Part shown: positions 11,054 to 39,861 of the stretch, piece after piece | How positions within the stretch are numbered: position 1 is the first letter of the stretch | Layout of the letters: each line of letters starts with the position of its first letter | Origin: Antedon mediterranea | Taxonomy: Eukaryota > Animalia > Echinodermata | DNA length: 64,000 bases | NCBI RefSeq assembly: GCF_964355755.1 | Contig: NC_092676.1 | Location: 3,325,888 to 3,389,887 of the forward strand | Direction of reading: 5' to 3' | Made by a program: the position numbers and the translations under genes | Notes under the pieces: model-generated | The model's database searches: none | Told to the model about the DNA's origin: nothing | The model's input: the letters and a program-made list of their open reading frames with translations, nothing else

Positions 11054-12490
11054 GGTGATATTGTTACGTAACCGTTACGTATTTACCGTTTACGTTGTAA
11101 CATATTTTAATACGTTTATCATTAACACATGTTGCAGAAATCAATATTAATCAACCTTCGGTATGTGACCTTACCATTTGGTCAAATCGCTCGTGACAGT
11201 TTTATGCAATGTGTATGTAGGCCTAAGATTAAAACAGAAGATTTAAAATAACAGCCATTATCTACGTTAACGCGGATTGTTGTTGCAGAGTTGTTTCTGT
11301 AACTTTGTATACAGTTTTTCATATAATTGACATAAAGTACCATAATATTCTATGATAAATAAATACATAAATAGCCTGGATGCATTACAGCCACTATAAA
11401 TATATAATTTAATAAAAGAACACTTGTTGGTAATTGTAAATATTACAGATGTACAGTCAAATAACTCTTAGATATCATAGCTTTAAATCCGTTTACTTAA
11501 TAATAGACGTATTGTAGTTGAATTCGGTTGCTTATCTATTTTGGTATTTAATTTAAAATAATCAATCTTGTATTATGTCGGCCTAATTAACCTTGCGCAT
11601 ATAAATAAGTTACTTAATATATTTTTTTATTTTAAAGAAACCGATGTAGGCCTACAGTATACCGTATTTTAATGAATACTACTTAATATATTTTCTATTT
11701 TAAAGAAACTGATGTAAACCTATACCGTTGTATTTTAATGAATACTAGCAGAACAAGAACATCTCGAAAATAGACTTTCAGTTATTATCATTATTATAAT
11801 TGATTTATATTGATTAGATAGCTAATAATATTGATTATGCAATCTAAGATATTGATTATGTATTTGATAGTGATTGTTATTGTTTTTTTTTCAAGAGCAA
11901 ACCACACCAAAATAGATTTTCATTTTTATTACCATTATCATAATTGATTTATATTGATTAGATAGCTTAATATTATTGATTATGAAATTAAAGTTATTGA
12001 TTATGTATTTGATATTGATTGTTATTGGGTTTTCAAATGAAAGCCAAATGTGTAAGTTATTTTTCGTTCTTGTATGAGGAAGCGAACTGAACAATTATTT
12101 TGGAAATGAGGAGATTGAAACAACACTGACGAGATCAAGGAAGTACAGGAAACAATTGGCAAGAGTTATGAGTTATATAAACACTAACATTGATGTACGA
12201 GGTTAGAGATAAGTGGTTACATTAATTCCCTTTCTGTCGATGGTACTTTGTACAATTCTCCCCCAATTTTCAACAAGTCCACACGGACTTCCGGAAAAAA
12301 ATAATTCAACATGATTCTGCATGATCAAACCAACAAGAAAACAGGGCCATATACATGGCTGCAGTCACGTGGTCAAGTTAGTGTTTGCCGACCAACCGAC
12401 CGACATAATGAGCGGAAGAAAGTAATTGAAAGTTCAAGATTAGTTAGAGATTGATGGTTACTTTCCTGTGGTAATTCGTTCAACTCTTAA

Positions 12491-12645
12491 GCTCTGTCTA
12501 CACTATCAAACTAGTTTGACGAAAAAGGATGTGATGTACCCAAATATGGTAGTGATATTCCCAACAATGGTAGTGGTATATTATGTCCATATATGGGCCC
12601 TTCACATTTTTTTTGTCACATAACATTTGATATTGTAGACAAAGC
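12491..12645. mobile_element. Small palindromic MITE (PIF/Harbinger-like)
   Basis: Ends gctctgtctacactatcaaa ... tttgatattgtagacaaagc with TAA/TTA flanks. A related copy lies in the opposite orientation at 13493-13643. Confidence 0.6.
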
Positions 12646-13492
12646 TTTACTGTTTAAACAAAATGACCCACATTTTTCATTTTATTTGAAATTCATATAC
12701 AATTTAGATTTCAAAGATTTTTTTGTTATCTTTTGTGGTTCACCACCACATTTATTCATTCAATGTTTCATTAGGGCCTACATAATTTGTTACCATTATT
12801 TTCTGTTTTTTCCTCATTAATATCATAATTTTAACCTTTAGTATCATCATTAATAAACATTCATTTGTTATTTTGTTTTCAGAATTACTAAACATTAATA
12901 TACAGAGTATTTACTTCTTAACATTCTTTTTTTTTGCTAAATCTTCTATTTACAAAATCAATTGTATATTAATTAAATACTTAGATTTCAAAGATAAAAA
13001 CACACAAAGTAACGCAAAAGGTTCAAGTATGTTTTTTTTAGCTTGTGGTTCATCAATATATATAAGATTGCACTGCGGTAATGTACCGGTACTGCAATGG
13101 TAACAAGTTAAAACCAAACTAACTTCTCCTTCTCGATACTGGAGTAAAACTACAATTTATAACGCCTTCGATTTAAATTCCAAAAGGTAAAACAATGTTG
13201 TTTTTGCTTTATATTTTCCTTCGTGGTTCATCAATTGCACGGTAATGTACCGGTATTACTGGTAATAAGTTAAAACCAAACCAATTTCTCTTTCTCCATA
13301 CTGATAGTAAACTATAATTTAAAGACTAAAACGAACTCCTTCGAGGAAGCAACGGCAATGGAAATTAAAGGGCGACAAATTTTACTTAATTCGTTTTTTA
13401 TGACATTAAATGGTCGCACAGACACTTCTGTTCATATCAAAACAAACAAGTTACGAAAACAGTAAGCCCTAATAAGGAAATAAGAGCATATG

Positions 13493-13643
13493 AAGCCCTG
13501 TCCACACTATCTAACTTTATGTAAAAAGTTATTGCCCATAAACGGACATGATGATGTCACATCACTACCATATTTGGGCATACCACTACTATGGGCACAT
13601 CACACTTTTGTTGTCAAACTAGTTCGATAGTGTAGACAGAGCT
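13493..13643. mobile_element. Second copy of the small MITE, inverted
   Basis: agccctgtccacactatc ... gatagtgtagacagagct; shares internal cactaccatatttgggca with the reverse complement of the 12491 copy. Confidence 0.6.
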
Positions 13644-14243
13644 TAATGCTGGTTGGACCAAAAATAGATCGGAAATGAAAAATCGGAACATAAAGGCTTG
13701 CTTCTAATAGTGTTCTCTATGTCTTGTCGTCACTTGGAGGGTAAACATATTATTATGTACACTTCTCTCCCAGGCATTCTTTTTTTTGCTAAATCTTCTA
13801 TTTACAAAATCAATTGTATATTAATTAAATACTTAGATTTGACACAAAAATGAAACACCAGCTTGTAGGCTGCAGGAATACTGGAAAGCTCTCTCTAAAA
13901 GTTCATCTTTATTACCATAAAAAAGGATTTTTTTCTCACTACAAACTATATAAAAGAGTAGGTGATTGTTTGCAGTTTTTTATTTTCACTGGAGTTTCAT
14001 GATTTGAGGTATGGTTTTTGCAAATTTTATAACTAAAAGCTAGGCTGCAAAGTTGAAAATCAAGCATACCTATTTCTGAAGAACAAAGGAATAAAGCCAG
14101 TATTGTAACCTACTTGAAAAGTGTTATGTAAGAAGTTCTGGGCTGGACAAACTAAGCCTTTGTTTAAATTCGCATCCTGTTTATATTGAACTGACTCATA
14201 GGCACAAACAAGCCCACTGCCCGTTTTAAACTTGACTCTTACA

Positions 14244-15641
14244 ATGGCAAATCTCATATCTAATAGCCTGGTGTGTCCAGCTAATCGGACATTTGACAAT
14301 GACGATGAAGAATCAATTTTGAAGGAATTCAGGGATTTAGAGCTATCTATCTTAAGTATGCCTTCTTATTTAACAACACCCTCGGCTTCCACACCAATTA
14401 AGCGATTTACTAATAATCCCAGAACATTTGATGCTGCTACGATTACTTCTTCAGTTGAGATTCGTGAAGTTTCTACACAATCAATTGCAACAAGAACAAC
14501 CAATATAGTTACCCAAACACCCGAGCACTGGGATCTGACACCCTCCTTAAAAAACAAAGTGAAAAGTAAGGATGACACAATAAATGATCTACGGAGACAA
14601 ATACACGATCTGAAAACTGTTCACGCTAACTTTGCCCAACTTTCGACATCTTTTAAGGAACTAAGTGAGAGAAATGAACACCTTGAGGCACAAATTACTA
14701 GCCTACGATCAGAGCTTGATGTAAAACACAACACATTTTATCAGCCTATTCATAACTGTTGCCAGGAAATAAGTCTGAATGGTAATGATCACGAGATCCA
14801 AACTAGTAACCATTTTGTTCGACTGGCAGATGAGCTCCCCACTTTACCTGAGCCGTTAATTCCTGAATCTGATCAAGCCATCCAAAACTCAACATACAAC
14901 GTCCAAAACAATGATAATGCATCTCACACTGTGAATACAACAAATTTGATAATCGGAGATTCCATGTTGAAACTAATTAAAACAAGAGGTCTAAGTGATA
15001 CATCAGTCAGGACAAAGCGAGGCTTTACTGTTAGTCAACTTTACAATGCTGTAACACATATGAATCTGGAAAATGTTACTAACATAATAATTCATGCTGG
15101 AACAAATGACTGTAGTCGAGAAGATTTTAACATTAGCAAACTTCACAAAGACTTTCTTCAAATAACAACATATTTGCAACAAAGGATATCTGGAAAGGTG
15201 CTCGTCTCGGGAATCTGTCCTCGTCTTGACAATACAAATTTTAACAGACAAATTGCTGAAGCAAATGATATGCTCCAAACGGTTTTTGGCCATATGTACA
15301 TTGACCATACCAACTATTTCACAGATGCTCACGGTGTACATTCAAATTACTTTACAAGACATGGCCTACACCTCAACCAGAAAGGTACATCAGTCCTACT
15401 AAGAAGTATTAATAGAGCAGTGCAGGTAATACGTACACCAGCGAGACAATGAAACCCAGAAGGCAAACAACGATACTTATCTGTTTCATCCTTCAACCAG
15501 GAAGCTCTGAATCCCTGCTTCAACTGTGGTGAGAATGGACATGTGCAGAGGATATGTCGTCATAAAGCACCGATTACATGCTGGAAATGTAACTCTGTAG
15601 GAGATAAGGCTAAGTTTTGCCAAGCATTTTATGATTACTAG
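14244..15641 (+). pseudogene. LINE ORF1: coiled coil, SGNH esterase and two CCHC knuckles, with one in-frame TGA at 15450
   Basis: SGNH blocks LIIGDSM, HAGTND and RHGLHLNQKG. Reading in frame past the TGA gives CFNCGENGHVQRIC and CWKCNSVGDKAKFC, ending at TAG 15639-15641. Confidence 0.8.
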
Positions 15642-15674
15642 GAAATAGGCAATGAGGGTTTAGCCGTAAATTCT

Positions 15675-16845
15675 ATGATTAATGACAATGAATTAGAACA
15701 AAATCCCCATGACGAGGTGGACACTCAACAAACTTATATAAATGATATTATACCACCTGGAGTTGCCTCAAATTTAACGTATACGATCAATTCAAATAAA
15801 AATGAAACAATTAACTATCAACATAACTGTTCGCTAAATGAACATAATAATTTAACTGAAAATTGTAAAGTATTTTTAAATAATGGTCTAAGTATCCTAG
15901 GATTGAATATAGTTTCTCTACCAAGCAAATTTGATGATCTAATCAACAACAATTCTATTGATATCATAGCACTCAATGAAACACGTTTAGATAATGTAAT
16001 TAAAGATGAATCGATACACATTGATGGCTATGATATTTATAGAAATGACAGAAATAGGGAAGGGGGAGGGGTTGCAGTTTATGTAAATAGAGGAGGATGT
16101 TTTACTTGTAAACTAAGAAATGATTTCATGAAAATGGAGCTTGAGATAGTACTAATCGAACTTTGTAAACCAAAAACTAAACCAATCATTTTAATAGCAT
16201 GGTACCGCCCACAAAACTCAAAAATTCAACTTTTAGATATTTTTGAACAAATTTTAGAAGAAAACGAATGTCTAAACAAAGAAATAATAATAATAGGAGA
16301 TGTCAATTGTGACACACTTTCACAAAACCCTACTTGCTATACACAAAAATTAATGGATATAACTAATAACCATTTTCTAACACAAATTATAACTGAACCG
16401 ACAAGGATAACAAACCAAAGTAAAACTCTGATTGGTCATTTTTATACATCCTTTCCAAACAGAATTTCTTCCTCGGGTGTCCTTAACACAGGAATTAGTG
16501 ATTATTCAGCTATTTACGCTGTCATTGGTAAAGAAGAAAAACCAAAACATAACCATAAATATAAAACAAAAAGGAACTATAATAACCTTGATGAGGAAAA
16601 ATTACAAATTGATATGTTAAATGTAAATTGGCATGAAATAACTTCATATACAAATGTGAATGACGCTCTGAAGTTTTTTGAAGACAAGTTTTTACAAATT
16701 GTTAATAAACATGTACCTTTAAAGAAAAAACGGGTTCGAAATAAAGATAGCCCATGGCTCACAAAAAATGTAATATTACAAATGCGAAAACGTGACTCAA
16801 TGAAAAAAAGAGCAAGTAAAGAAAATTGTCCTCAATTATGGAACG
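15675..16845 (+). pseudogene. LINE ORF2, 5' part (apurinic endonuclease)
   Basis: Motifs IIALNETRL, RNDRNREGGGVAVY, WYRP, IIIGDVN, TEPTRIT, ISDYSAI and SPWLT. Ends at the Gypsy target site GAACG. Confidence 0.88.
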
Positions 16846-19132
16846 TGTAGTATATGCACGCGCACATATATATATGCGTACTGCGCATATGCTCTGACGA
16901 GTTTAGCCTACAAAACGTTCTATACAAAGATACTATAGCGCCACGAAGTGGCGCAAGATAGGGAACTCCTATCTCTTATACACTGCGCATGAGTGAAATT
17001 CCATGGGCAGCCATTCCGGCAAGCAAGTTACGCGATCACATACCCCGGAAGTGTATAATAAACCATTGAACCACATCCACGTGTGACGTGTTATTGTTTG
17101 TTCGGGAAGTTTTCTCGTGTTGTATTGGGTAAATTGTAGTGGTAAGTTTTTAGAATATATATTTTTTTGTTAGTAAACATTAACAAAATTATTAAATTGT
17201 TGTTTAAATTTAGTTCAGGCAGGCGTTTCTGCGCAATCCGATCTAGGCCTAGGGCCTAGATAGTAGTATGCCTAGTAGGCATATTTAATGCCGAATACTA
17301 GGCCTAGGCCTAGTTTAGTTAGTATGATGATTAATAAAAAAAAGTATGGGAGGATGAATGATATTGATTGGCGTCTTGATAGATGGATCAAACAAGGCTT
17401 GGATGGATGGAAGATTAAGAAAAAAACTGAAGCTGTTCGGGAATTAGGAGTTTTTAATAAAAATGTACAAGACAATATAGCGTTTTATTAATAATAACAT
17501 TAACAGAAATAATTAAATGTAATGAAATAAAAAATCGTGAGGATGTTATTGTTTGTTTTTTTTTTATTTAATAAATTTAAATTATAAATTTGATCCTCAT
17601 ATTTATTTTGTTCTTCATCTTTATTTGAAAAATATTTAGTTAATTAATGTAAACATTTTTGAATACTTACAATATTAATAAATAGTAGGCTATTGACTTT
17701 TGTTTTGAATTTAAAAATGTATAGTATTTTAAAATACTATAATATTGTAATCAAATGATTATGTAACAGTTCGAAAAGTGACCAAATAATTTAATGATAT
17801 ATTTTTCCCTATTTCAGAAAGATGTCTGTCATCATACTGTAAAATTGAGAAGATAGATGATTGAGTGCAAAGTGGTATTTTACACAAGAATTAAATACAA
17901 AGGCCAATAGTAATAATAGTTTATATTTTTGATTCTTGAAAAGGAGCAGTATCCTATGGGATTACAAATAAAATCACTATTTTCACACACCTCATACTTT
18001 AAAGTGAAAGGAAATAACCAGAATTCAGTTATTATCAGTACTGTTGTTTAGGCCTATTGGCTTCTTTTTAATACAAGAAATCAAAATAATAGAATTTTCC
18101 TTGTATTTAAGAAGGCTAAAACCATACATTCGTAATTTATTTATTGAGTGTATTTAATTATTCCACCATTATTTATTAATATTGTATAAAGCGAGATTTT
18201 TCAGTATTTTTATTGCATTTTAATCCTGTCTGTAATATTGAAAGTTGAGCTAATAAAAGTGGGTTGAAAAGAACAAATTATGATTATGAATTTTTAAAAT
18301 TAATATTTAATACTTTTACTTTTTTGAAATTAAAAAAAATGTAACAATTGTTTTTGTATCTAGTAATGTATGTACAGTATACTACAGTTGTGGCAGATCG
18401 TAGTAAAATTCCCCTTGCAATGAAATAACTTTGTAGGCCTGAAGCACACAAAATAGAAAGAGAGGGTCCGAACAGGGGAAAGAACATCCCTCTGCCCATA
18501 AATTTTTTTTTTTTTAATTAAAAAGACAGTTTTGGACAATATATTTGGCAATTATTACAATTCATCTCCAAAAAATGCTTCTCTCGCACATAAACTAAGC
18601 CATCATCCCAGCCTAGGCCAAAGGCGGCCGACCTTGGGCGTGAAGTGCGTAGCATCGCGCTGCGCGCCGCGACACTATTTATAACTATGCCTCAACCGAC
18701 TGCCTACAAAATTCGTCCCCCATACAGTCAGTGTTTATTCTGTAGCCGTTTGAGGTTGGACAGTGATATACGCATATGTAAGTGTAATATCAAATGGAGT
18801 AAATTTATATAATCGAATTTTATATAGATGTTCTTTCATTTTGACGCGAAAGATAAAATAAAGTCGTACTGTTTATCGCGTAGATGTAAATCCTATTTGT
18901 TTACATTGATTTGGTGGCGTGCCGCATTGCCTACTGGGTAATCCGCTTGCCGGAATGGCTGCCCATGGAATTATCATTTTTCGAGCGTCAGTTCCATATC
19001 TTGCGCCACTACGTGGCGCTATACGATCTTTGGTTCTATACTATTGTTCATTACTAGTTGGTTTCATTAAATACGTTCATTATTATACTCATCTCAACGT
19101 ACTTATTAATTTGTCTACGACGATACACGACA
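16846..19132 (+). repeat. 5' LTR, split (16846-16924 and 19033-19132) by a DNA transposon
   Basis: After removing 16925-19032 and one TSD copy, it matches the 3' LTR apart from a small ~3-nt indel (cattactag versus catgactactag). Confidence 0.92.
16925..19032. mobile_element. Non-autonomous DNA transposon with 8-bp TSD (P-element or hAT-like)
   Basis: ~43-bp imperfect TIRs caaagatactatagcgccacgaagtggcgcaagatagggaact and agttccatatcttgcgccactacgtggcgctatacgatctttg. A second inverted block aattccatgggcagccattccggcaagc lies at ~16997 and ~18945. TSD GTTCTATA at 16917-16924 and 19033-19040. No transposase ORF. Confidence 0.9.
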
Positions 19133-19133
19133 C

Positions 19134-19146
19134 TGGCGACGAGGAT
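19134..19146 (+). promoter_or_regulatory. Primer binding site, complementary to the tRNA-Ser(GCT) 3' end
   Basis: TGGCGACGAGGAT starts 1 nt after the LTR end and matches the reverse complement of the eukaryotic tRNA-Ser(GCT) 3' end (...ATCCTCGTCGCCA), recalled from memory. Confidence 0.8.
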
Positions 19147-19307
19147 ACAGGCACATTTACATAGAGAGAAACGGAAGTATAATAATATTATAAAACTAGG
19201 CCTAGGCTAGCAGTTTTTGATTTTCCAACAACGGCAACCGTAACCAAGGAACCGCACAGGCTAATAACGATTCTGAGCGCCCTGAACGTACAGAGCGAAG
19301 CGCGGTA

Positions 19308-22302
19308 ATGGCAGCGGCTAATACCAGAATTCTATTCGAGGAATTCTACGTCCAGGATGGAGACATAGATACGTATGTGGACAGGCTGGAACAATATTTT
19401 GTGGCATTAGATATCAATGACGGAGGTAAGAAAAGAGCGATATTATTGAGTAGTTTAGGAGAGACTGGATACACAACGATACGAGATTTGTGTTTTCCTG
19501 ATAAACCAAGTACAAAATCGTACGATACGCTCACAACCAAGCTCAAAGAGCTTTATAAACCTACTCGAATAACGATTTCTGAACGATTTATATTCAGAAA
19601 TGTAAAACAGACACCGGGACAGACTATTTCTCAATTTGTATCCCATCTAAAGAAAAAGGCGATACATTGTGGTTTTGAAGGAGAGGCATTGGAAAACGCA
19701 CTGCGTGATCAGTTCGTATGTGGACTAATAAGTCAGAGCATCCAAAAGAAATTATTGACAAAGAACCATACGTTCAAGGAAGCAACAGACATAGCCATAG
19801 CCTCGGAGGCAGCAACAGCGAATATGAAAAGTATGTCGCACGATGTGGACAAGCCAATCAACCACGTTACGTCTAACAGCAGGAAGTCTACGAAAACTTA
19901 TCAAGCGTCAAACCTAACACGAACGCAGAAATGTGACCGCTGTGGTATGAACAATCATACAAGAGATACGTGTAAATACAAAAACGCTACATGCTTTAAA
20001 TGCAACAAACAAGGACACCTAAAATCAGAATGCAGGCAGTCGAGTAAATCAACAAAACAATATAAACCTAAATCCATCAAGCAAGTAGAAGCACCGGATT
20101 ACGACGAAGGTAATGACGATTTTGTAGATACAATGTTTTGCGTAGGCATTAAGCAGGACAATTCGGTACCACCAATAACGGTACAGATGCGAGTTGATGA
20201 TATAGATATTGATTTTGAAGTAGATACGGGCGCAGCAGTATCGATAATTAGCTTTGACGATTACGAAAGCAAGCTTAGCCATCTACCATTAAAGTCAGTA
20301 AAACGTACACTTCACGCATACACAGGTACTAAGCTCGATATAGCAGGAGAAATTAAAGTCACCGTGAACTATAGGGGCCAGAGTAACGTTCTCCCACTGA
20401 TAGTAGTGAGAACACAGCGACGAAACTCACCACCCTTGCTTGGAAGAACCTGGTTAGAAGTGATTAAGTTGGACTGGAAGTCATTATTTCCACCATCGCT
20501 TGCTCAGAATTCGGTAGAAATAGATAACGATGTCGGTCAGTCATTCAAACGGAAGTTCCCAGAAGTTTTCCGAACGGAATTAGGTACGGTTCAGGGACAC
20601 AAAGCGACATTACATCTAAAAGTGAACGCAATCCCAAAATTCTGCAAAGCTCGAAATGTTCCATTTGCGCTACGCTCCGCAGTTGAGGTAGAGTTAGACA
20701 GAATGCAAAACGAAGGAGTTATTTATCCGGTAAACTTTAGTCAGTGGGCAACCCCATTGGTATGTATTCCAAAGGCCGATGGCAGGGTACGTGTCTGCGG
20801 AGATTATAAAGTAACAGTCAACCCGAGTTTAAATTGCGACCAATATCCAATTCCGACCCCAGAGGAAGTTTTCACCAAGTTGGGAGGTGGAAAGCGATTC
20901 TCTAAGATTGATTTGAAATGTGCGTACCAGCAGTTAGTACTGGAAGACGAGGCGCAAGAGTTGGTAACGATCAACACGCACCGCGGATTATATCGATACA
21001 CGAGGTTACCGTTTGGTATTTCGTCCAGTCCAGCCATATGGCAGCGATTCATAGAACAGGTGATAGCAGGACTTAAAGGAACATGTGCGATCATGGACGA
21101 TGTTCTTGTTACAGGTGCGTCTGATAAAGAGCATATTAGTAATCTTGAGAAACTATTTGAGAGATTTAACAAGTATGGTCTCAGAGTGAAAGCGGAGAAA
21201 TGCGCGTTTGTACAAAAGGAAGTAGTCTACATGGGACGTAAGCTATCAGCAGCAGGAATTCAACCGACAAACGATAAAGTGAAAGCCATCAAGGATGCAC
21301 GAGCACCACAGAATGCAACAGAACTAAGATCCTGGCTAGGACTAGTTAACTATCACGCGTCATTTATTCCACGATTATCGACGATGATACATCCTTTGAA
21401 TGAGCTGTTGGGAAGCAAACCATGGTCATGGACTGTCGACTGTAGTAAAGCGTTTAACGCGGTAAAGCGAATTATTAGCGAAGACATGATGTTGACGCAT
21501 TATGACCCATTAAAACCACTGGAACTATACACGGACGCATCACCATACGGAGTTGGCGCAGTCATTTGCCACGTAAACGAGAACAATATCAAAACACCGA
21601 TCGCGTACGCATCGCGAAGCCTGCATAAACACGAAAAGGGTTATGCACAACTAGACAAGGAAGCCCTAAGCATCATGTTTGGACTTCAAAGGTTTAGAAC
21701 ATACTTATACGGACGGAAATTCACGATAAGAACTGATCATAAGCCACTTGAACGCATTCTAGGACCTAAATCAGCTATTCCGACACTGGCCGCACAGAGA
21801 TTACAGCGATGGGCAATCGTGCTGTCAGCGTTCGAATACGATTTAAAGTTCATTCCTGGAAAACAGAACGTAATTGCCGACGCACTCTCACGTCTCCCAA
21901 TGTCATACGAAGGACGGGAAGACGATGCAGTATATAACATAGCGGGGCATACATTAGACAATTTGCCAGTCACGAGTACGAACGTACAACAGCATACCAG
22001 GAAAGACCCGCTATTGAGCAAAGTGTTATACATGGTACAGACAGGTTTATGGCAGTCAGAAAACGACGACGATCTAAAACCATTCCTACACCGAAGAGAC
22101 GAATTGAGTGTAGAACAGGACTGTTTGCTGTGGGGATACAGGGTAGTGATTCCACCGAAACTCAGAGGGGCAGTTCTGGAGGAGCTTCATTGTGCTCACC
22201 CCGGAATCGTGCGTATGAAAGAGATTGCGCGAAGTCATGTCTGGTGGCCCCAGATAGATTCCGACATTGAACGATTGGTGAAGCAATGTCAAGCATGTCA
22301 CC
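19308..22302 (+). CDS. Gypsy gag-pol, 5' part (Gag with 2 CCHC, aspartic protease, RT, RNase H, integrase HHCC)
   Basis: CDRCGMNNHTRDTC and CFKCNKQGHLKSEC; FEVDTGAAVS; RVCGDYK, IDLKCAY, RLPFG, IMDDVL; TDASPYGVG, TDHKPL, ADALSRLP; H..HPG..CQAC. Confidence 0.93.
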
Positions 22303-24460
22303 CACATTCATTTAGACTAGACAAAAAGTAGTGAGCCCTCTAGCGGTCATTTGTGATTTCTGAGATTCATCGAAGCGCGACAACATCACCCGGAAATGAT
22401 GTGAATTTAAAATTTTAATAGGGGTTAAACTCTTTTAACCAATTGAAAGCCTTAAATTATAGTTCCTTATGAATAATTCATGAGAATAATTAAAGCAAGG
22501 GTTGAAGAAGCATGTGACTTGGTTTTTGGAACAGGATAGCAGTTATGATCGTGTCAGGTAATCATTGAATTTGCTCTTCTTTTTGTTAGATTTTATACGG
22601 TTTTTATCAATAATAATATTGTACATTTTTACGAGACCATAAAAAAATTCCTCAATTTTTGAGTAAACGAGTGACTAAATAAAAAGTTACTATGTAATGT
22701 AAATATTCGTTTGACAAAAAATGGGCATGTTGATATTTTCAGGTATTTTTTAAATGGCGATTGAAATAGGTAAACAAATCACATGTATAACGGTGGTTTG
22801 TGCGAAGCTGGGCCTAGCCTTGATGGTCCAACGCGTACTGTGTGTTAATCAATGCGTATAAGATACACACGTAGTCGTTTAGGCCAATTTTTTTACATGT
22901 TTATTTATTAATATTAGGCCCCATTCTCATTTATTTTAATTAATGTACTGAATGTACCACACTTTACAACTCTATATAAATTAGATTTTGTACTTGTATT
23001 AAATTCAAACGTTTTATGGGATTTAAAACATTAAGCTAGGCCTTGTAGTAGGCCTAGGACCACATGCTAGGTTTTTCAGCCTAATTTATCATGCAGTATA
23101 CCTCTAGCCCATCTTTCAAATACATATTTAAATTAACATACTTTTTATATTTCTATATTTTTTATAGGATCTGACTCCAGAAAACATTTGCATCACTTGA
23201 AAGCAGCTATTTATGGACAGCATGTTGACATTCAAAAAAATGTGACCAGCTCTTATTAATTAAATGTCTTTTAAATTAAAGGTTTTCATTATAATGAAAT
23301 GTACGGTGACAGAAATTTAAATGATTCTCATAATTGAGGTTTCTCATAGATTTAATATTGAAGGTAAATAAATAAATAAAGATGTTTGTTATTCTTGCCT
23401 TTAGAAATAAACATGTTGTTAGTACTATATTATTAGGCCTAGGCCATTATACAAATTAAAACTAAAAAATACAGTAATCATATTTAAGGCCTACACACAG
23501 TACCTTACTTGATTTGATTTTTTTCAAATATTTAATTGATGAAATAAATGAGTTTGACTTTTCAATTAGTTGCCATTTTATTAGTTTCTGTGTGTTTTTA
23601 TTTATATTCTTAAAACAATTGTATACAACAACTTTAAAGTATTGCGCAGAAGTGATCAAATTATAGTAGGCCTATTTGTATGTTATTGTCGCTTAAAATT
23701 ATGCAGTTAAAGTATTTGATTTTAGGGTGACAGACACGGTTAGGCAAGAAAAGAAATAAATTTGGGAATTTTGTTCTGCGGTAAAAACAATTAAACATAA
23801 TTTACCCCTAATGCATGTAAATGTAGAAAACATTTGCTTATGTTAGCGCGACCGAAACTCGCTACTGGGAATAGAGCCTGCAAAAGCGACGCGTACACAC
23901 CTACTCGGGCACCGGCGGAGCGCGATCGATAGTAAATATACCCGATTTCAAATGATCATAAAATTCTTTTAAAAAATATCAACATTTTGATTTTTTGAGG
24001 ATTAAAAGTAAAGATATTGAAATTTAACATAATATTTACAAATATGTATTTAAAAATTCGGAAACAATTTTAGCGTGATATTAAAACAAACTTTTTAGAG
24101 TTCCGCGATTTCCTACGCAGGATTTGTTTGTTTTCATTGTTAATGGGCGAATGTTACCTAAACTAGAATCGTTATAAATCTTTTAAATTTGTATTATAAG
24201 TAATTTCTTTAGTATTCTTAGTAACATAGAATGTCTCTAATTAACTAGCAGTTATTTATACTAACTATTGTTCAATAATAAGCGTGTATGAAGTGAAAAT
24301 CTATAGTAATAATGTTCTTAGTCAGTTCGTCTCGCTCGCGTGAAGTCTTCGGGTTTCTCAATACAATTCTCAGCGGTAAAGATAGGCTCGCGCTAATGTT
24401 TAAATCAAAAGCGCTCTCAAAACACTTTTTGTCCAAAATTCGCAATATGACGTGAGTGTG
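22303..24460. mobile_element. Non-autonomous DNA transposon with CAC...GTG ends, 4-bp TSD and asymmetric RSS-like termini
   Basis: TSD CACC at 22299-22302 and 24461-24464; removal restores integrase CQAC-HQTQSRP in frame. Left end is CACATTC-11 nt-ACAAAAAGT; right end (reverse complement) is CACACTC-21 nt-ACAAAAAGT. Confidence 0.88.
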
Positions 24461-24464
24461 CACC

Positions 24465-25456
24465 AAACACAAAGTCGACCAAGCGTAGCACCAATGATGC
24501 CCTGGATCTGGCCAAATCAGCCTTGGACACGAATACATATTGACTATGCGCAGAAAGATAAACGAGATTATCTAGTAGTGGTTGACTCATATTCGAAATG
24601 GCCAGAAGTCGTTCAGATGAACAGTACGACGAGTGCAGCGACCATCAAAGCGATGAGAGAGTTGTTCAGTAGATACGGATTGCCTGTTCAACTTGTAAGC
24701 GATAATGGACCTCAATTTGTTAGCGACGAATTTGAATTCTTCTTAAAGCAAAACGGGGTGAAACATGTAAAGGTTGCACCTTATCACGCCGCAAGCAACG
24801 GAGCAGCAGAACGAATGGTTCAATCTTTCAAAAGATCGTTAGCGGCAAGCCGAGCTAATGGGAAGGATTTCCAACAATGTTTGGACAGATTTCTTTTATC
24901 GTATCGCACAACAAAACACGCAACTACGGGACAAACGCCAGCGAAGTTATTCATGGGCTGTGAGTTGAGAACGCGAGTATCACTTTTACATCCCAGTACA
25001 GAAAACAAGGTACTTAACAAGCAGAGTGATCAGAAGCTTCATCACGACAAAACGAAAGATCTACGAGAATTTTACCCAGGTGAAATGGTATTAGTGAAAG
25101 ATTTCCGACAAGAGGGAAAGTGGTGGCCAGGTACCGTGATAGAACGTACCACTCCAAAATCATACGTAATTAGTGTTGAGGATGGCCGAGTGTGGAAAAG
25201 ACACATTGACCAGTTGAAAGCGACAGACGCGGACGCTTACGCGAGTAAAACCCCTACTTCACATAGCGAGTTGGAACACAAGATTAAACAGACAGTACCA
25301 ATAACGATTGCGAGCGAAACGATTGCGAACAAAGAGCAAACATCCACCAACCAACCGGTTGAAGAGGAACATAGATTGTCTTCATCGCCTGAGGTTATTC
25401 CACGACGCTCCACGCGACTTCGAAGGAAGCCAACACGACTTATCGAAGAGATATAG
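24465..25456 (+). CDS. Gypsy pol, 3' part (integrase catalytic core and C-terminus)
   Basis: PWTRIHIDYA, VVVDSYSKWPE, LVSDNGPQF, YHAASNGAAERMV, TTGQTPA, and terminal PRRSTRLRRKPTRL. Confidence 0.92.
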
Positions 25457-25686
25457 AACTTGTGAACAATGTTATTATTATGAACGTTAAAGTTATGTTG
25501 TTCATGTTTTTACACAAAATTATAATGGTGAGAATTACTCACATTTGTTAATTATTATGAGGAACCAAATAAGAACTATCTGGAACTATAGAAGCAGTAA
25601 TTTAATCACGATGATTAACCTATTTGATTAACAAAATAATTAACGAAAGTTTATTGTGCTTATTGATATCATGTTAACGTTAAAAT

Positions 25687-25699
25687 AAGAAAGGAGGAG
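25687..25699 (+). promoter_or_regulatory. Polypurine tract
   Basis: AAGAAAGGAGGAG immediately before the 3' LTR. Confidence 0.85.
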
Positions 25700-25873
25700 T
25701 GTAGTATATGCACGCGCACATATATATATGCGTACTGCGCATATGCTCTGACGAGTTTAGCCTACAAAACGTTCTATACTATTGTTCATGACTACTAGTT
25801 GGTTTCATTAAATACGTTCATTATTATACTCATCTCAACGTACTTATTAATTTGTCTACGACGATACACGACA
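25700..25873 (+). repeat. 3' LTR (174 bp)
   Basis: tgtagtatatgcacg ... gatacacgaca, followed by TSD GAACG. Confidence 0.95.
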
Positions 25874-31149: not shown

Positions 31150-31972
31150 TTAACATATAACATATCTGCCAAGATAAACAAGTAAATTGTAATTCTCATT
31201 ATAATGGACTGTAACATGGATCTAGTTTAAGTTTTAAAAAGGATATGCTTTTAAATAAATTGTTATATAATATTATAACATTTATTGTATATAAACCACT
31301 ACCACCACCATGGTCTAATATAAATCTAAATAAATAAGTGTACAGTTATATACATTTAAAATAGAATAAACTGTAGGCAGTTAGGCGTTATAGCAAAACA
31401 TTAATTAAGCTTGTATAGACGCAACAAAAGCGAGTTGACCAATGACAAGCGACAGTTCGAATAATACATTGCTTATGATTGATCAAATCGCTTACGTTGC
31501 TTTACGTCCTTGTGTTGCGTCTCTAGTGGGAACCACGCATTAGGGGAAAATGTACGCAATAGTAGTACAAAAATTATATATTATTTAAGGAAGCAATATA
31601 GATGAACAGGTTATGGTTAAATAACATAGTATAAAATGACTCTAAGTAACGAGAGGAAAGCCATGATTCAAAGTTGATATTTATTTGATCATCATCAGGA
31701 GTCGATGATCAAATAAAAATTGAAACGTTGAACCATGGTTTGCATCTCCTTATTATTTAAGGAAACAATAACACTAGATTATTAACGAGCAATACGACAA
31801 GAATAACACAGAAATTAGGAAGGCAGGAAGTTTTACGAAACTATTTTAAAATGTATTGGTTTATCAAGTTGTCCGGTATCGTGTTTTGTTTTCACTTTCA
31901 TGATGTTTCTAAGTGTACAATGAACGAATAAAATAATGCCAGTCAATTATCTATCAACATATTATTGGTTAA

Positions 31973-32374
31973 AGGCCCATTTACACTAGGACGATAACGA
32001 TCGGCGATAAATAGATAAGCATGCATTTTTTTTTTACATAAAACAAAAGAATTTAGAAAGGTTTTCGTTCTAGAATTATAGAATATTCATTTATGCTGTC
32101 TTTGATAAAAATAATATTTTAAAAAATCCAATCAAATGACGTCATGATCAATAAAACAAAAAAAAGTCGTTGTATTGTCACGATATTATTGCTCTTACTA
32201 ATCATGACGTTATTTGATTGGACATGTGAAAATATCATTTTCATCAAATTAAGCATAGATGGTTCCTAAATAGTTCTAGAATAAAAACTTTTTAGATTTC
32301 TTTTGTTTTATGTATGAACAATGCATATTTGTTTATTTATCGTCGATCTTTATCGTCCTAGTGTAAACGGGCCT
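31973..32374. mobile_element. Palindromic MITE, PIF/Harbinger-like (TAA TSD)
   Basis: aggcccatttacactaggacgataa ... ttatcgtcctagtgtaaacgggcct; the arms are complementary over nearly the whole length; TAA on both sides. Confidence 0.85.
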
Positions 32375-32377
32375 TAA

Positions 32378-32974
32378 AGCTCAGGTACAGGCATGAATTT
32401 TAAATATAATATCTGGTTAATTGTACATAAATCAAATATTTGTAACAGAAATCAAGACGAAAAAACATGAATTTCCCTTAATATAGTCAAATACAAAATT
32501 TGGCAAAATTCTGCCATAAAAACCAGGAAGACTTTTTTTCAGTAGTTAGGTAGTATAACCTAATGTAATAAAATTATCTGGTGACTCCCTAGAAAGTGAA
32601 ACAAGATGGTGGATATACGGTGGATAATTTTTGCTATAGCATGAAAATAAAAATCTGAAGTTGAATAAAAATACCAGAAATGTAAAATTCAAGTTATATT
32701 ACCTATATTTAGTCATCTGATAACATTTTTTACCACACCGTTTATTTTTCATAGCTTTTTAAAATGCCTCTCTATTTACAAAATTTGTGTTCAAAATAAT
32801 AGAGATTTTACTGTGTAATTTGAACTATCCCCCCACTGATAAGAAAGTGCTTATTTTCAATAAGCTCGTGTAACACAAATAAAATCCCAAAAAATTATGA
32901 AACATAGGGGAAACTATAGATCGATAATTATTGGAATGTATGATCAATAGAAATTGTTTGCCCGCACCTGGCCT
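32378..32974. mobile_element. TTAA-flanked non-autonomous element (Kolobok-like)
   Basis: agctcaggtacaggc ... gcccgcacctggcct|TTAA. The paralogous empty site (attattggTTAAgg) is visible on the minus strand at ~48095-48120. Confidence 0.7.
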
Positions 32975-38212: not shown

Positions 38213-39861
38213 TTATATCACTGATGTTCCAAAATATGTATATACACAAGTTACAAATCTAATATATAATTTTATTTGGAACAATAAAAGGGAAAAGATA
38301 AAAAGAAAAACTCTAATTGGTGATGTTGAGATGGGAGGCATTAAAATGCCTGATTTTACTCTTCATGTTAACGCACTCATGTGTGGCTGGTTAAAAAGAA
38401 TTATGAATGATGATGGTGCTAAATGGAAAAATATTCCAATGTATTATATTAAAAAAATGTGATGTTAATGTTTTACTTAATATGTCATGTTATAACATTA
38501 TTGATGTTAATTCTGATAAAATTCCACTGTTTTACAAAAATATGATAAAAGCCTACATAAATTATAACAGAATCTCTAAAAAAAAAACCTGAAACTTATA
38601 ACGATATAATGAATGAGCAACTGTGGGGAAACCCCAACGTTAAACTAAAAAAAAAATCGCTTTTCTACAAGCATTGGATTGACAGTGGCATTATCAGTAT
38701 TAAAGACATTGTTAATAAGAACACTTTTTTAACATCAAACGAAATACTGGTGAAACTACAATGTAAAACAAACTGGTTAAATGAGTATTTGTGCATTATT
38801 AAGGCAATACCAATTCAATGGAAACGTATTATTAAGGAGGTAGATATTTTCAATTGTGATGATAATGATGAATTAGTTGGGACCAAGTATGAGATTAATA
38901 CTACCAAACTAATATACTCATGGTTTGTGAAAGAATATTTCATTATTCCAATGTCACAACTAAAATGGGAAGAGTACTTCAATGATAACAACATTGATTG
39001 GAAAACTTCTTGGTTACGGAAAGTATGTAAAATGAAAGATAAGAAACTAGCACAATTCAATTATAAGATGTTACATAGAATACTGCCTACCAACAAACGG
39101 CTGTATCAGTGGAAAGTTAAGGAAACACAAACGTGTGACAAATGTGGAGAAATTGAAAATGAAAATCATTTGTTTTTTAGTTGTAGATTTATTCAGAAAT
39201 ATTGGAGGAAAATGCTTAGTATCTTTGTAAGTTTAAATCACAATAATATATCATTTAAACAATTAATACTAGGAACGGGAGATAAGCTAATAGATTATAT
39301 TTACACTTTTGCAGCATTTACTATTTATAGAATAAAAATGTTATCTGCACTAAATAAGCCAGTGGGTAAATCTTTATGGAATTCATTTAAAAGCAATATG
39401 TTATATAACATTGAATGTGAAACATATAACAATAAAGAAACAAGTATAGAAAAATGGGTTGGTTTAAGAAATAAGATTATGATAATATAATTTCTAATTT
39501 GATACGATTAACCGAAAAAGAATTACAGTGATAGGGGTTACTGGTAGTACTGAGCTATTATTGTTTTTTTTTATCATGTATATAAATATATTGTATAATC
39601 CGGGTTGTAAAATGAAAACAAACAAATGAAAATGTGTGAGCTATTTTAAAACGGGATAGATGATAATGATGATCCTGTCAAGTGTATAACCAAAATATAA
39701 GAAAATTAATGAAAAAAGGAGTAATACAGAATTCATATATGTAAAAATGTTACTTATGAACTGTAACGACATTTACAAGTTAAATAATACGATTTTATGT
39801 AATATGAGATAATATGAATGTGAATAAAAGTGGTGTTTGCGCCACAAAAGAGAGAAAAAAA
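38213..39861 (+). mobile_element. 5'-truncated L1/Tx1-type LINE (ORF2 C-terminus, 3' UTR and A-rich tail)
   Basis: FIWNNKREKIKRKTL..GGIKMPD, EQLWGNPN, FNYKMLHRILPTNKRL, CDKCGEIENENHLFFSC. TSD AAGAACGAATTTAT at 38199-38212 and 39862-39875; paralogous empty site at ~53008-53021. Confidence 0.88.

What the first reader, a model, noticed from the sequence alone, without database searches (positions are those of the whole stretch)
22299..24464. Transposon with V(D)J-RSS-like asymmetric ends (heptamer, 11/21 spacer, nonamer) inside an Ig gene cluster
Seen: left end CACATTC + 11 nt + ACAAAAAGT (22303-22329); right end on the minus strand CACACTC + 21 nt + ACAAAAAGT (24460-24424). The spacers are unrelated and differ by 10 nt, one helical turn. 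TSD is CACC, and excision restores the integrase frame. Known: RSS is CACAGTG-12/23-ACAAAAACC, so the match is 5/7 and 7/9; RAG-like and Transib transposons have CAC termini and usually 5-bp TSDs, while Chapaev elements have CAC termini and 4-bp TSDs. Inference: a recently active non-autonomous partner of a RAG-like or Chapaev transposase obeying a one-turn/two-turn rule. Its position among Ig genes may be coincidence, as it sits in a retrotransposon rather than a V domain.
Basis: partly seen in the sequence, partly recalled or inferred. Interest (0 to 1): 0.88.

Follow-up and report, generated by a model that had tools for sequence, protein, structure and literature searches.

The report
Gene-less transposon with short/long ends
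This is a young, many-copy, gene-less jumping DNA element whose two ends carry the same short box one DNA turn apart, loosely like antibody-gene recombination signals; it is likely moved by a Chapaev-type enzyme (a distant cousin of RAG1) that was not found here, and its place among immunoglobulin-domain genes is likely chance.

Summary
A 2158-bp element (22303-24460) has CAC..GTG ends and a 4-bp duplication (CACC), confirmed by uninterrupted retrotransposon contigs in two samples. Both ends carry GACAAAAAGT, 10 bp further in on the right. The asymmetry is a family trait: 10 of 13 contig records that reach the long end keep the 21-nt spacer, among them a near-unrelated family from a second labelled organism; two have 20 and one old copy has a private 10-bp loss. 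The element is young, present in roughly tens of copies, has no transposase and yields a small spliced, polyadenylated RNA. The RSS likeness is weak: nine equally good matches lie elsewhere in the window, and the box varies in relatives. The 4-bp duplication and missing TR2 block argue against RAG-like and canonical Transib elements and fit classical Chapaev. The transposase was not found (no genome held), so family and any pairing rule are inferred. 12/23-like ends are already published for Transib and RAGL-A; I found none in print for Chapaev. The element sits in a young gypsy retrotransposon 3-11 kb from intronless Ig-domain receptor genes that lack RSSs, so no V(D)J link is shown.

The parts
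22299..22302 (+). left target-site duplication CACC (4 bp)
   Evidence: uninterrupted-site joint with 4 shared letters in X1 and X5
22303..24460 (+). non-autonomous cut-and-paste DNA transposon, 2158 bp, 31% GC, no transposase ORF
22303..22329 (+). short end: CACATTC + 11 nt + ACAAAAAGT (box GACAAAAAGT at 22320-22329)
   Evidence: no indel in the first 100 bp of an ~82%-identical copy (record 2)
24424..24460 (-). long end: CACACTC + 21 nt + ACAAAAAGT (box at 24433-24424)
   Evidence: register kept in 10 of 13 records that reach the terminus
24404..24460 (-). terminal 57 bp, invariant in a contig of twice the body depth, so probably shared with a second family
   Evidence: record 22 (depth 1689, 0 differences) against record 17 (depth 836)
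24461..24464 (+). right target-site duplication CACC
22533..22557 (+). exon 1 of a family transcript (5' end at a template-switch-adaptor-like loose end in one contig)
   Evidence: tables 5, 7, 8 (X7 record 22); adaptor identity recalled
22558..23167 (+). 610-nt GT..AG intron
   Evidence: joint in X5 and X7
23168..23565 (+). exon 2, ending in poly(A) 17 nt after AATAAA (23543-23548); longest ORF of the spliced RNA 34 aa; a P-x2-I-C-x2-stop stretch at 23177 recalls the Chapa zinc-finger motif (weak hint)
   Evidence: no hit in Pfam or 1.84 billion proteins
16846..25873 (+). host: young gypsy LTR retrotransposon (LTRs 171/171 identical plus one 3-bp indel, 5-bp TSD GAACG); the element interrupts its integrase zinc-finger region

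Best explanation
It is a young, multi-copy, gene-less cut-and-paste DNA transposon with a 4-bp target duplication and a short and a long end, likely mobilised in trans by a classical Chapaev-type DDE transposase. Shown: boundaries, TSD, youth, multi-copy state, family-wide 11/21 spacing, small spliced RNA. Inferred from the RAG/Transib literature: the enzyme would cut at the terminal CAC while a second DNA-binding module grips the GACAAAAAGT box. The 10-bp offset (about one helical turn) would keep the box on the same face of the helix at both ends but at two distances, so that one short and one long end fit an asymmetric synaptic complex. I put the Chapaev assignment at about 0.6 and an enforced short/long pairing rule at about 0.3. 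The RNA from the short end is probably the retained promoter and first intron of a deleted transposase gene (about 0.4). The insertion among Ig-domain genes is a passenger event inside a retrotransposon.
For: CAC..GTG ends and 4-bp TSD match the Chapaev hallmark of 3-4-bp TSD with invariable CAC/GTG termini. The 3-bp class is Chapaev3 with TWA sites (PMC4079192), which leaves 4 bp for the classical group. CMC elements have 2-4-bp TSDs, canonical Transib 5 bp (10.64898/2026.08.26.747230). Long-end register: 10 of 13 terminus-reaching records keep 21 nt. These include records 7/15 of organism D, which align only over 24392-24452 (8 mismatches, no gap), have a different interior, and still place GTG at the same position. 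Short end: no indel in the first 100 bp of an ~82%-identical copy. Youth: about 8 substitutions (and 7 gaps) in 2115 bp between the window copy and the main X1 contigs (records 3-5), inside a retrotransposon with identical LTRs. A P-x2-I-C-x2-(C or TGA) stretch opens exon 2; it occurs 3 times in 127,996 codon positions of the window and resembles the H-less form in Chapaev-1/2/5_HM (PMC4411706 supplement 5).
Against: No transposase was found: no genome is held, six-frame Pfam 0 hits, phmmer of the exon-2 reading 0 hits, no partner end with a TSD among 36 metagenome and 12 viral pattern hits. TSD length was measured for one insertion only. TSD length is labile within Transib (3-bp and TA cases), and RAG itself makes 4-bp TSDs in a minority of events (PMC1131882). 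The box is not more constant than the spacer in relatives: 4 A instead of 5 in records 4, 12, 13 and 18, and two substitutions plus a 20-nt spacer in records 21/27. The 8 mismatches of records 7/15 were not located. I saw no sequence of a classical Chapaev end to compare with. The Chapa-like motif is post hoc, has a stop where the second Cys should be, and its upstream spacing is 6 residues longer than in Chapaev-2_HM.
Confidence: 0.6

Rival explanations
1. Non-autonomous partner of a Transib or RAG-like (RAGL-A-type) transposase with true RSS-like 11/21 ends; the 4-bp TSD is an atypical event or a lineage trait.
For: Heptamer, unrelated spacer, A-rich nonamer and 10-bp offset are the RSS layout. 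Some Transib families have RSS12/RSS23-like ends (PMC1131882 section 9) and PflRAGL-A ends have a 10-bp asymmetry (PMC10629977). The host looks echinoderm-like (best named gypsy relatives Lytechinus and Patiria), a group with RAGL-A genes whose TIRs were not identified. TSD length varies in one Transib lineage.
Against: TSD is 4 bp here, against 5 bp for Transib and RAGL. No conserved A-rich TR2 at positions 8-16 (ATTTAGACT against ACGTCATAT). No likeness to the PflRAGL-A ends beyond the first 4 letters and position 6-7 partly. Flanks seen next to ends are mixed, several AT-rich, whereas Transib/RAG prefer GC-rich targets. RSS-level matches are common by chance.
Confidence: 0.2
2. An EnSpm/CACTA-type or other CMC element whose box is an ordinary subterminal binding site; the 10-bp offset is a frozen accident of the founder, and no pairing rule exists.
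For: CAC..GTG termini are shared across the CMC(T) clade with 2-5-bp TSDs (PMC12730594; PMC6004678). The whole terminal 57 bp, not just heptamer and box, is invariant. All relatives seen come from two closely related labelled organisms, so shared spacing may be simple descent.
Against: The box occurs exactly once per end, not as an array of subterminal repeats. The EnSpm cases in the passages read have 2- or 3-bp TSDs. Spacing survives in a family whose interior is unrelated (records 7/15).
Confidence: 0.17
3. The element is a programmed recombination cassette acting on the surrounding Ig-domain genes (an invertebrate V(D)J-like system).
For: It lies within a tandem array of Ig-domain receptor genes.
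Against: It sits in a retrotransposon, 11.2 kb and 3.3 kb from the nearest Ig ORFs. The Ig genes are single open frames from signal peptide to tail, not split segments. One site in the window meets a stricter RSS pattern, and it is not paired or beside a V domain. The family is dispersed, with several other flanks.
Confidence: 0.02

Closest known systems
Classical Chapaev DNA transposons (CMC/CMCT clade; Kapitonov and Jurka 2007 not read; described in PMC4079192, PMC4411706, PMC12730594, passages and supplements read)
   Same: CAC..GTG termini, TSD within the 3-4-bp range, non-autonomous derivatives, invertebrate host
   Different: No transposase in this copy; bipartite ends with a 10-bp offset were not found described for Chapaev in my searches; the Chapaev3 ends shown in PMC4079192 are short, near-symmetric and TWA-flanked
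Transib families with RSS12/RSS23-like ends (Transib5, Transib2_AG, TransibN1-3_AG; PMC1131882)
   Same: CAC heptamer, free spacer, A-rich nonamer-like box, short and long end about one turn apart, non-autonomous members
   Different: 5-bp GC-rich TSD and CACAATG/AAAAAAATC consensus there; 4-bp TSD, CACAYTC/ACAAAAAGT and 11/21 spacing here
PflRAGL-A transposon of Ptychodera flava (PMC10629977)
   Same: 10-bp length asymmetry and AT-rich nonamer-like box in an ambulacrarian host
   Different: PflRAGL-A has a conserved TR2, 5-bp TSDs and RAG1L/RAG2L genes; none of these is seen here
V(D)J recombination signals (12/23 RSS)
   Same: CAC start, AAAAA tract, unrelated spacers, one-turn difference
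   Different: 11/21 not 12/23; 5/7 and 7/9 identity is at chance level in this window; the ends flank a mobile element, not gene segments

Membership tests
Classical Chapaev | 5'-CAC..GTG-3' termini | tested here: met
   feature from PMC4079192
Classical Chapaev | 4-bp TSD (3-4 bp for the superfamily; 3 bp is Chapaev3) | tested here: met
   one insertion only; both flanks of other copies could not be paired
Classical Chapaev | Chapaev transposase (Chapa zinc finger; C(2)C, LH, H(4)H motifs) in the cognate autonomous element | not testable with these tools
   no genome; Pfam and phmmer negative; only a weak motif hint
Chapaev3 | 3-bp TWA TSD between A and T | tested here: not met
   TSD CACC against PMC4079192 Table S3
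Transib | 5-bp TSD | tested here: not met
   4 bp; note that the feature is labile in one lineage
Transib | CAC heptamer plus A-rich nonamer at RSS-like distance | tested here: inconclusive
   CAC and A-tract present, spacers 11/21 rather than 12/23; such matches are common by chance
Transib | Transib transposase | not testable with these tools
RAGL transposons (A and B) | 5-bp TSD | tested here: not met
RAGL transposons (A and B) | conserved A-rich TR2 next to the heptamer at both ends | tested here: not met
   positions 8-16 differ between the ends and are not A-rich
RAGL-A | 10-bp end asymmetry with AT-rich nonamer-like box | tested here: met
RAGL transposons (A and B) | convergent RAG1L-RAG2L genes in the autonomous partner | not testable with these tools
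   absent from this copy; partner not found
V(D)J system | paired RSSs flanking split V/(D)/J segments | tested here: not met
   Ig genes are single ORFs; no paired RSS beside them

The most novel reading that the evidence does not exclude
The ends are substrates of a RAG1-related transposase outside the RAG/Transib branch (Chapaev type, 4-bp TSD) that enforces a one-turn/two-turn pairing rule, so the logic of the 12/23 rule is older and wider than RAG and Transib. A rarer version (about 0.06 on its own) is that these are the missing TR2-less, RSS-like ends of an echinoderm RAGL-A-type element.
Probability: 0.25. Interest if true: 0.78.

Novelty: new variant of a known kind. Interest (0 to 1): 0.42.

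Why it matters
The origin of the 12/23 asymmetry is debated: RAGL-A ends (PMC10629977) against a Transib seed (PMC8355894). A young family with a 4-bp TSD and a conserved one-turn offset suggests that a third, more distant branch uses the same geometry, by deep ancestry or by convergence. Because the family is young and a second family seems to share its long end, an intact transposase may exist in this animal, which would make a short/long pairing rule directly testable outside RAG. Without the enzyme it remains an interesting end structure on an ordinary non-autonomous element.

Tried and rejected
No whole genome was available, so copies and the autonomous partner could not be searched directly. 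Metagenome contigs gave 36 hits, none with a partner end plus TSD; the best BLAST match (L156, 30 bp, E 0.003) is the searched pattern itself in unrelated sequence. Six-frame Pfam scan of the element: 0 families. Rfam: 0. phmmer of the 85-residue exon-2 reading: 0 of 1.84 billion proteins at E 0.001. The run search listed no holder on record as RNA, which is no evidence either way. Run X6 (organism B) showed only low-depth pieces and short chance matches and was not used. Look-ups of earlier findings by sequence and by place returned nothing. Yuan and Wessler 2011 and Panchin and Moroz 2008 were not held, and Repbase Reports are not in the library, so a prior description of such ends there cannot be excluded. 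Rejected: a link to the Ig genes; a private-indel origin of the asymmetry; Chapaev3; a CxxC-like stretch 47 bp from the left end as coding remnant (it lies upstream of the transcript start).
Full report
1. Observation. The element spans 22303-24460 (2158 bp, 31% GC). The left end reads CACATTC, 11 nt, ACAAAAAGT; the right end on the minus strand reads CACACTC, 21 nt, ACAAAAAGT. The ends share 7 of their first 8 letters and an exact 10-mer, GACAAAAAGT, found once per end and nowhere else inside the element. The spacers share 3-4 of 11 letters. A shared 10-mer between two such segments arose in 55 of 20000 random window pairs and 24 of 20000 shuffles (post hoc). The resemblance to the RSS itself is weak: 11 sites in the 64 kb reach the same level, 9 of them elsewhere.

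2. Boundaries and TSD. CACC flanks both ends. Of four trial overlaps, only 4 bp agrees with the host reading frame. Contigs of runs X1 and X5 (two samples, two studies) join 22298 to 24461, skipping 2162 letters with 4 fitting either side, and uninterrupted flanks also occur in organism D. The retrotransposon is itself multi-copy, so these may be paralogous rather than allelic empty sites; they fix the TSD length but do not show polymorphism.

3. Host context. The element interrupts the integrase zinc-finger region of a gypsy LTR retrotransposon (Pfam RT, RNase H, Integrase_H2C2, rve) whose LTRs are identical over 171 aligned letters apart from one 3-bp indel, so both insertions are recent. 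Its best named relatives are from Lytechinus and Patiria (68-70% identity), which points to an echinoderm-like host (inference). The surrounding Ig-domain genes are single open frames from signal peptide to cytoplasmic tail; the nearest lie 11.2 and 3.3 kb away. One site in the window meets a stricter RSS pattern, and it is unpaired. I see no link to V(D)J-like rearrangement.

4. The family. No genome is held, so I used public contigs. In X1 the body has depth about 420 against about 9 for two diverged copies; in X2 it is 836 against 24-33 for five single-locus-like records. The tool warns that depth is no copy number, so I read this only as roughly tens of copies. The window copy differs from the main X1 contigs by 8 substitutions and 7 gaps over 2115 bp (records 3-5). 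Other flanks adjoin the right end in 5 X1 contigs and 2 X5 contigs, and the left end in 1 X5 contig. The terminal 57 bp of the long end form one invariant contig of depth 1689, twice the body, which suggests a second family with the same end (inference).

5. Is the asymmetry conserved? One search listed 29 of 38 pieces; 13 reach the long terminus or show it in a loose end (about 10 distinct loci), and the other 16 are interior or flank pieces. Ten of the 13 keep the 21-nt spacer. Two (records 21 and 27, probably one locus) have 20 nt and two substitutions in the box. One (record 18, organism A) lacks exactly 10 bp, giving an 11-nt spacer; record 12 from organism D has the same flank and the full 21 nt, so the loss most simply happened after insertion. 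Records 7 and 15 (organism D) align only over 24392-24452, with 8 mismatches and no gap, have an unrelated interior, and end in GTG at the same register; the positions of those mismatches were not listed. At the short end, a copy about 82% identical over 150 bp has no indel in its first 100 bp, and its 20 listed differences of 27 all lie at or beyond 22356 (26 of 106 pieces shown). So the short/long design is a family trait. Against the RSS analogy, the box has 4 A instead of 5 in records 4, 12, 13 and 18 while the spacer stays similar, so the data do not show a fixed nonamer in a free spacer within one end.

6. Transcript. Contigs in X5 and X7 skip a 610-nt GT..AG intron (22558-23167). One X7 contig (depth 7) starts at 22533 behind an adaptor-like loose end (template-switch oligo, recalled) and ends in poly(A) at 23565, 17 nt after AATAAA. 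The RNA may come from other copies. Its longest ORF is 34 aa. Exon 2 opens with P-x2-I-C-x2-TGA, which recalls the H-less Chapa motif of Chapaev-1/2/5_HM (PMC4411706 supplement 5 part 1) and occurs 3 times in 127,996 codon positions. Pfam and phmmer found nothing, so this is a hint only.

7. Mechanism. Shown: cut-and-paste hallmarks, no coding capacity, recent spread. Inferred: a DDE transposase of the CMC(T) clade acts in trans, cutting at CAC and binding the internal box with a second module. A 10-bp offset keeps helical phase, as with the RAG nonamer-binding domain, which pivots to fit 12 and 23 spacers (PMC10629977). I give about 0.6 to a classical Chapaev enzyme, 0.2 to Transib/RAGL and 0.17 to another CMC type, and about 0.3 to an enforced short/long rule.

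8. Literature. PMC4079192 (passages; supplement 2 whole): Chapaev has 3-4-bp TSDs and CAC/GTG termini, Chapaev3 has TWA. PMC1131882 (passages; section 9): Transib has 5-bp TSDs, several families have RSS12/RSS23-like ends, RAG makes 4-bp TSDs in a minority of events. PMC10629977 (passages; section 15; supplement hits): PflRAGL-A has heptamer, TR2, 10-bp asymmetry, nonamer-like box and 5-bp TSD. PMC7204232 and 10.1101/100735 (passages): RAGL TSDs are 5 bp. 10.64898/2026.08.26.747230 (passages): TSD length is labile in one Transib lineage and should not override transposase homology. PMC8355894 (passages): names some Transibs as the only other known 12/23-asymmetric case. PMC4411706, PMC12730594, PMC3014272, PMC6004678, PMC3630058 and PMC4455052 were seen as passages. 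Searches for Chapaev with RAG1, asymmetric and terminal inverted and for Chapaev with TIRs, TSD and 4-bp returned 0 papers; Repbase Reports and two key papers were not available.

9. Earlier scan notes. Two AI notes on other genomes report Chapaev elements with short and long ends. I could not see their sequences or test them; they agree with my prior reading and are not counted as evidence.

10. Verdict. A real, young, non-autonomous transposon with a conserved one-turn end asymmetry; probably Chapaev-type, not a RAG element, and unrelated to the neighbouring Ig genes. New variant of a known kind; interest 0.42.

Noticed in passing
window 861-60494 (ORFs at 861, 3859, 9131, 27786, 33899, 40768, 49232, 53551, 58953): Tandem array of about nine Ig-domain receptor genes, most as single intronless open frames (signal peptide, Ig domains, Thr-rich stalk, transmembrane helix, tyrosine-motif tail such as LSYAEI and LDYATV, ITIM-like by recall); some are broken. 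The ectodomain of one found no relative at E 1e-10 among 2345 candidates, so this may be a lineage-specific invertebrate receptor family.
   Followed up: partly
window 16925-19032: A second young DNA transposon (2108 bp, 43-bp TIRs starting CAAAG, 8-bp TSD GTTCTATA, P- or hAT-like by recall) interrupts the 5' LTR of the same retrotransposon.
   Followed up: partly
window 12487-13646 and 31969-32378: Two further TIR elements flanked by TTAA.
   Followed up: no
window 14202-16850 and 38561-39490: Fragments of non-LTR retrotransposons: an ORF1-like protein with a GDSL/esterase-like match, an endonuclease-like ORF and an RT C-terminal-like ORF.
   Followed up: no
window 22336-22346: CCCTCTAGCGG just inside the short end resembles the CTCF core motif (recalled, not tested).
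   Followed up: no
window 23575-24266: Several loose ends and depth steps inside the element suggest embedded pieces of other repeats; no inverted repeat pair was found there.
   Followed up: partly
records 12 and 18 (right end, window 24430-24460): An old insertion shared by organisms A and D has lost exactly 10 bp of its long spacer in A, turning a long end into a short-spaced one.
   Followed up: partly
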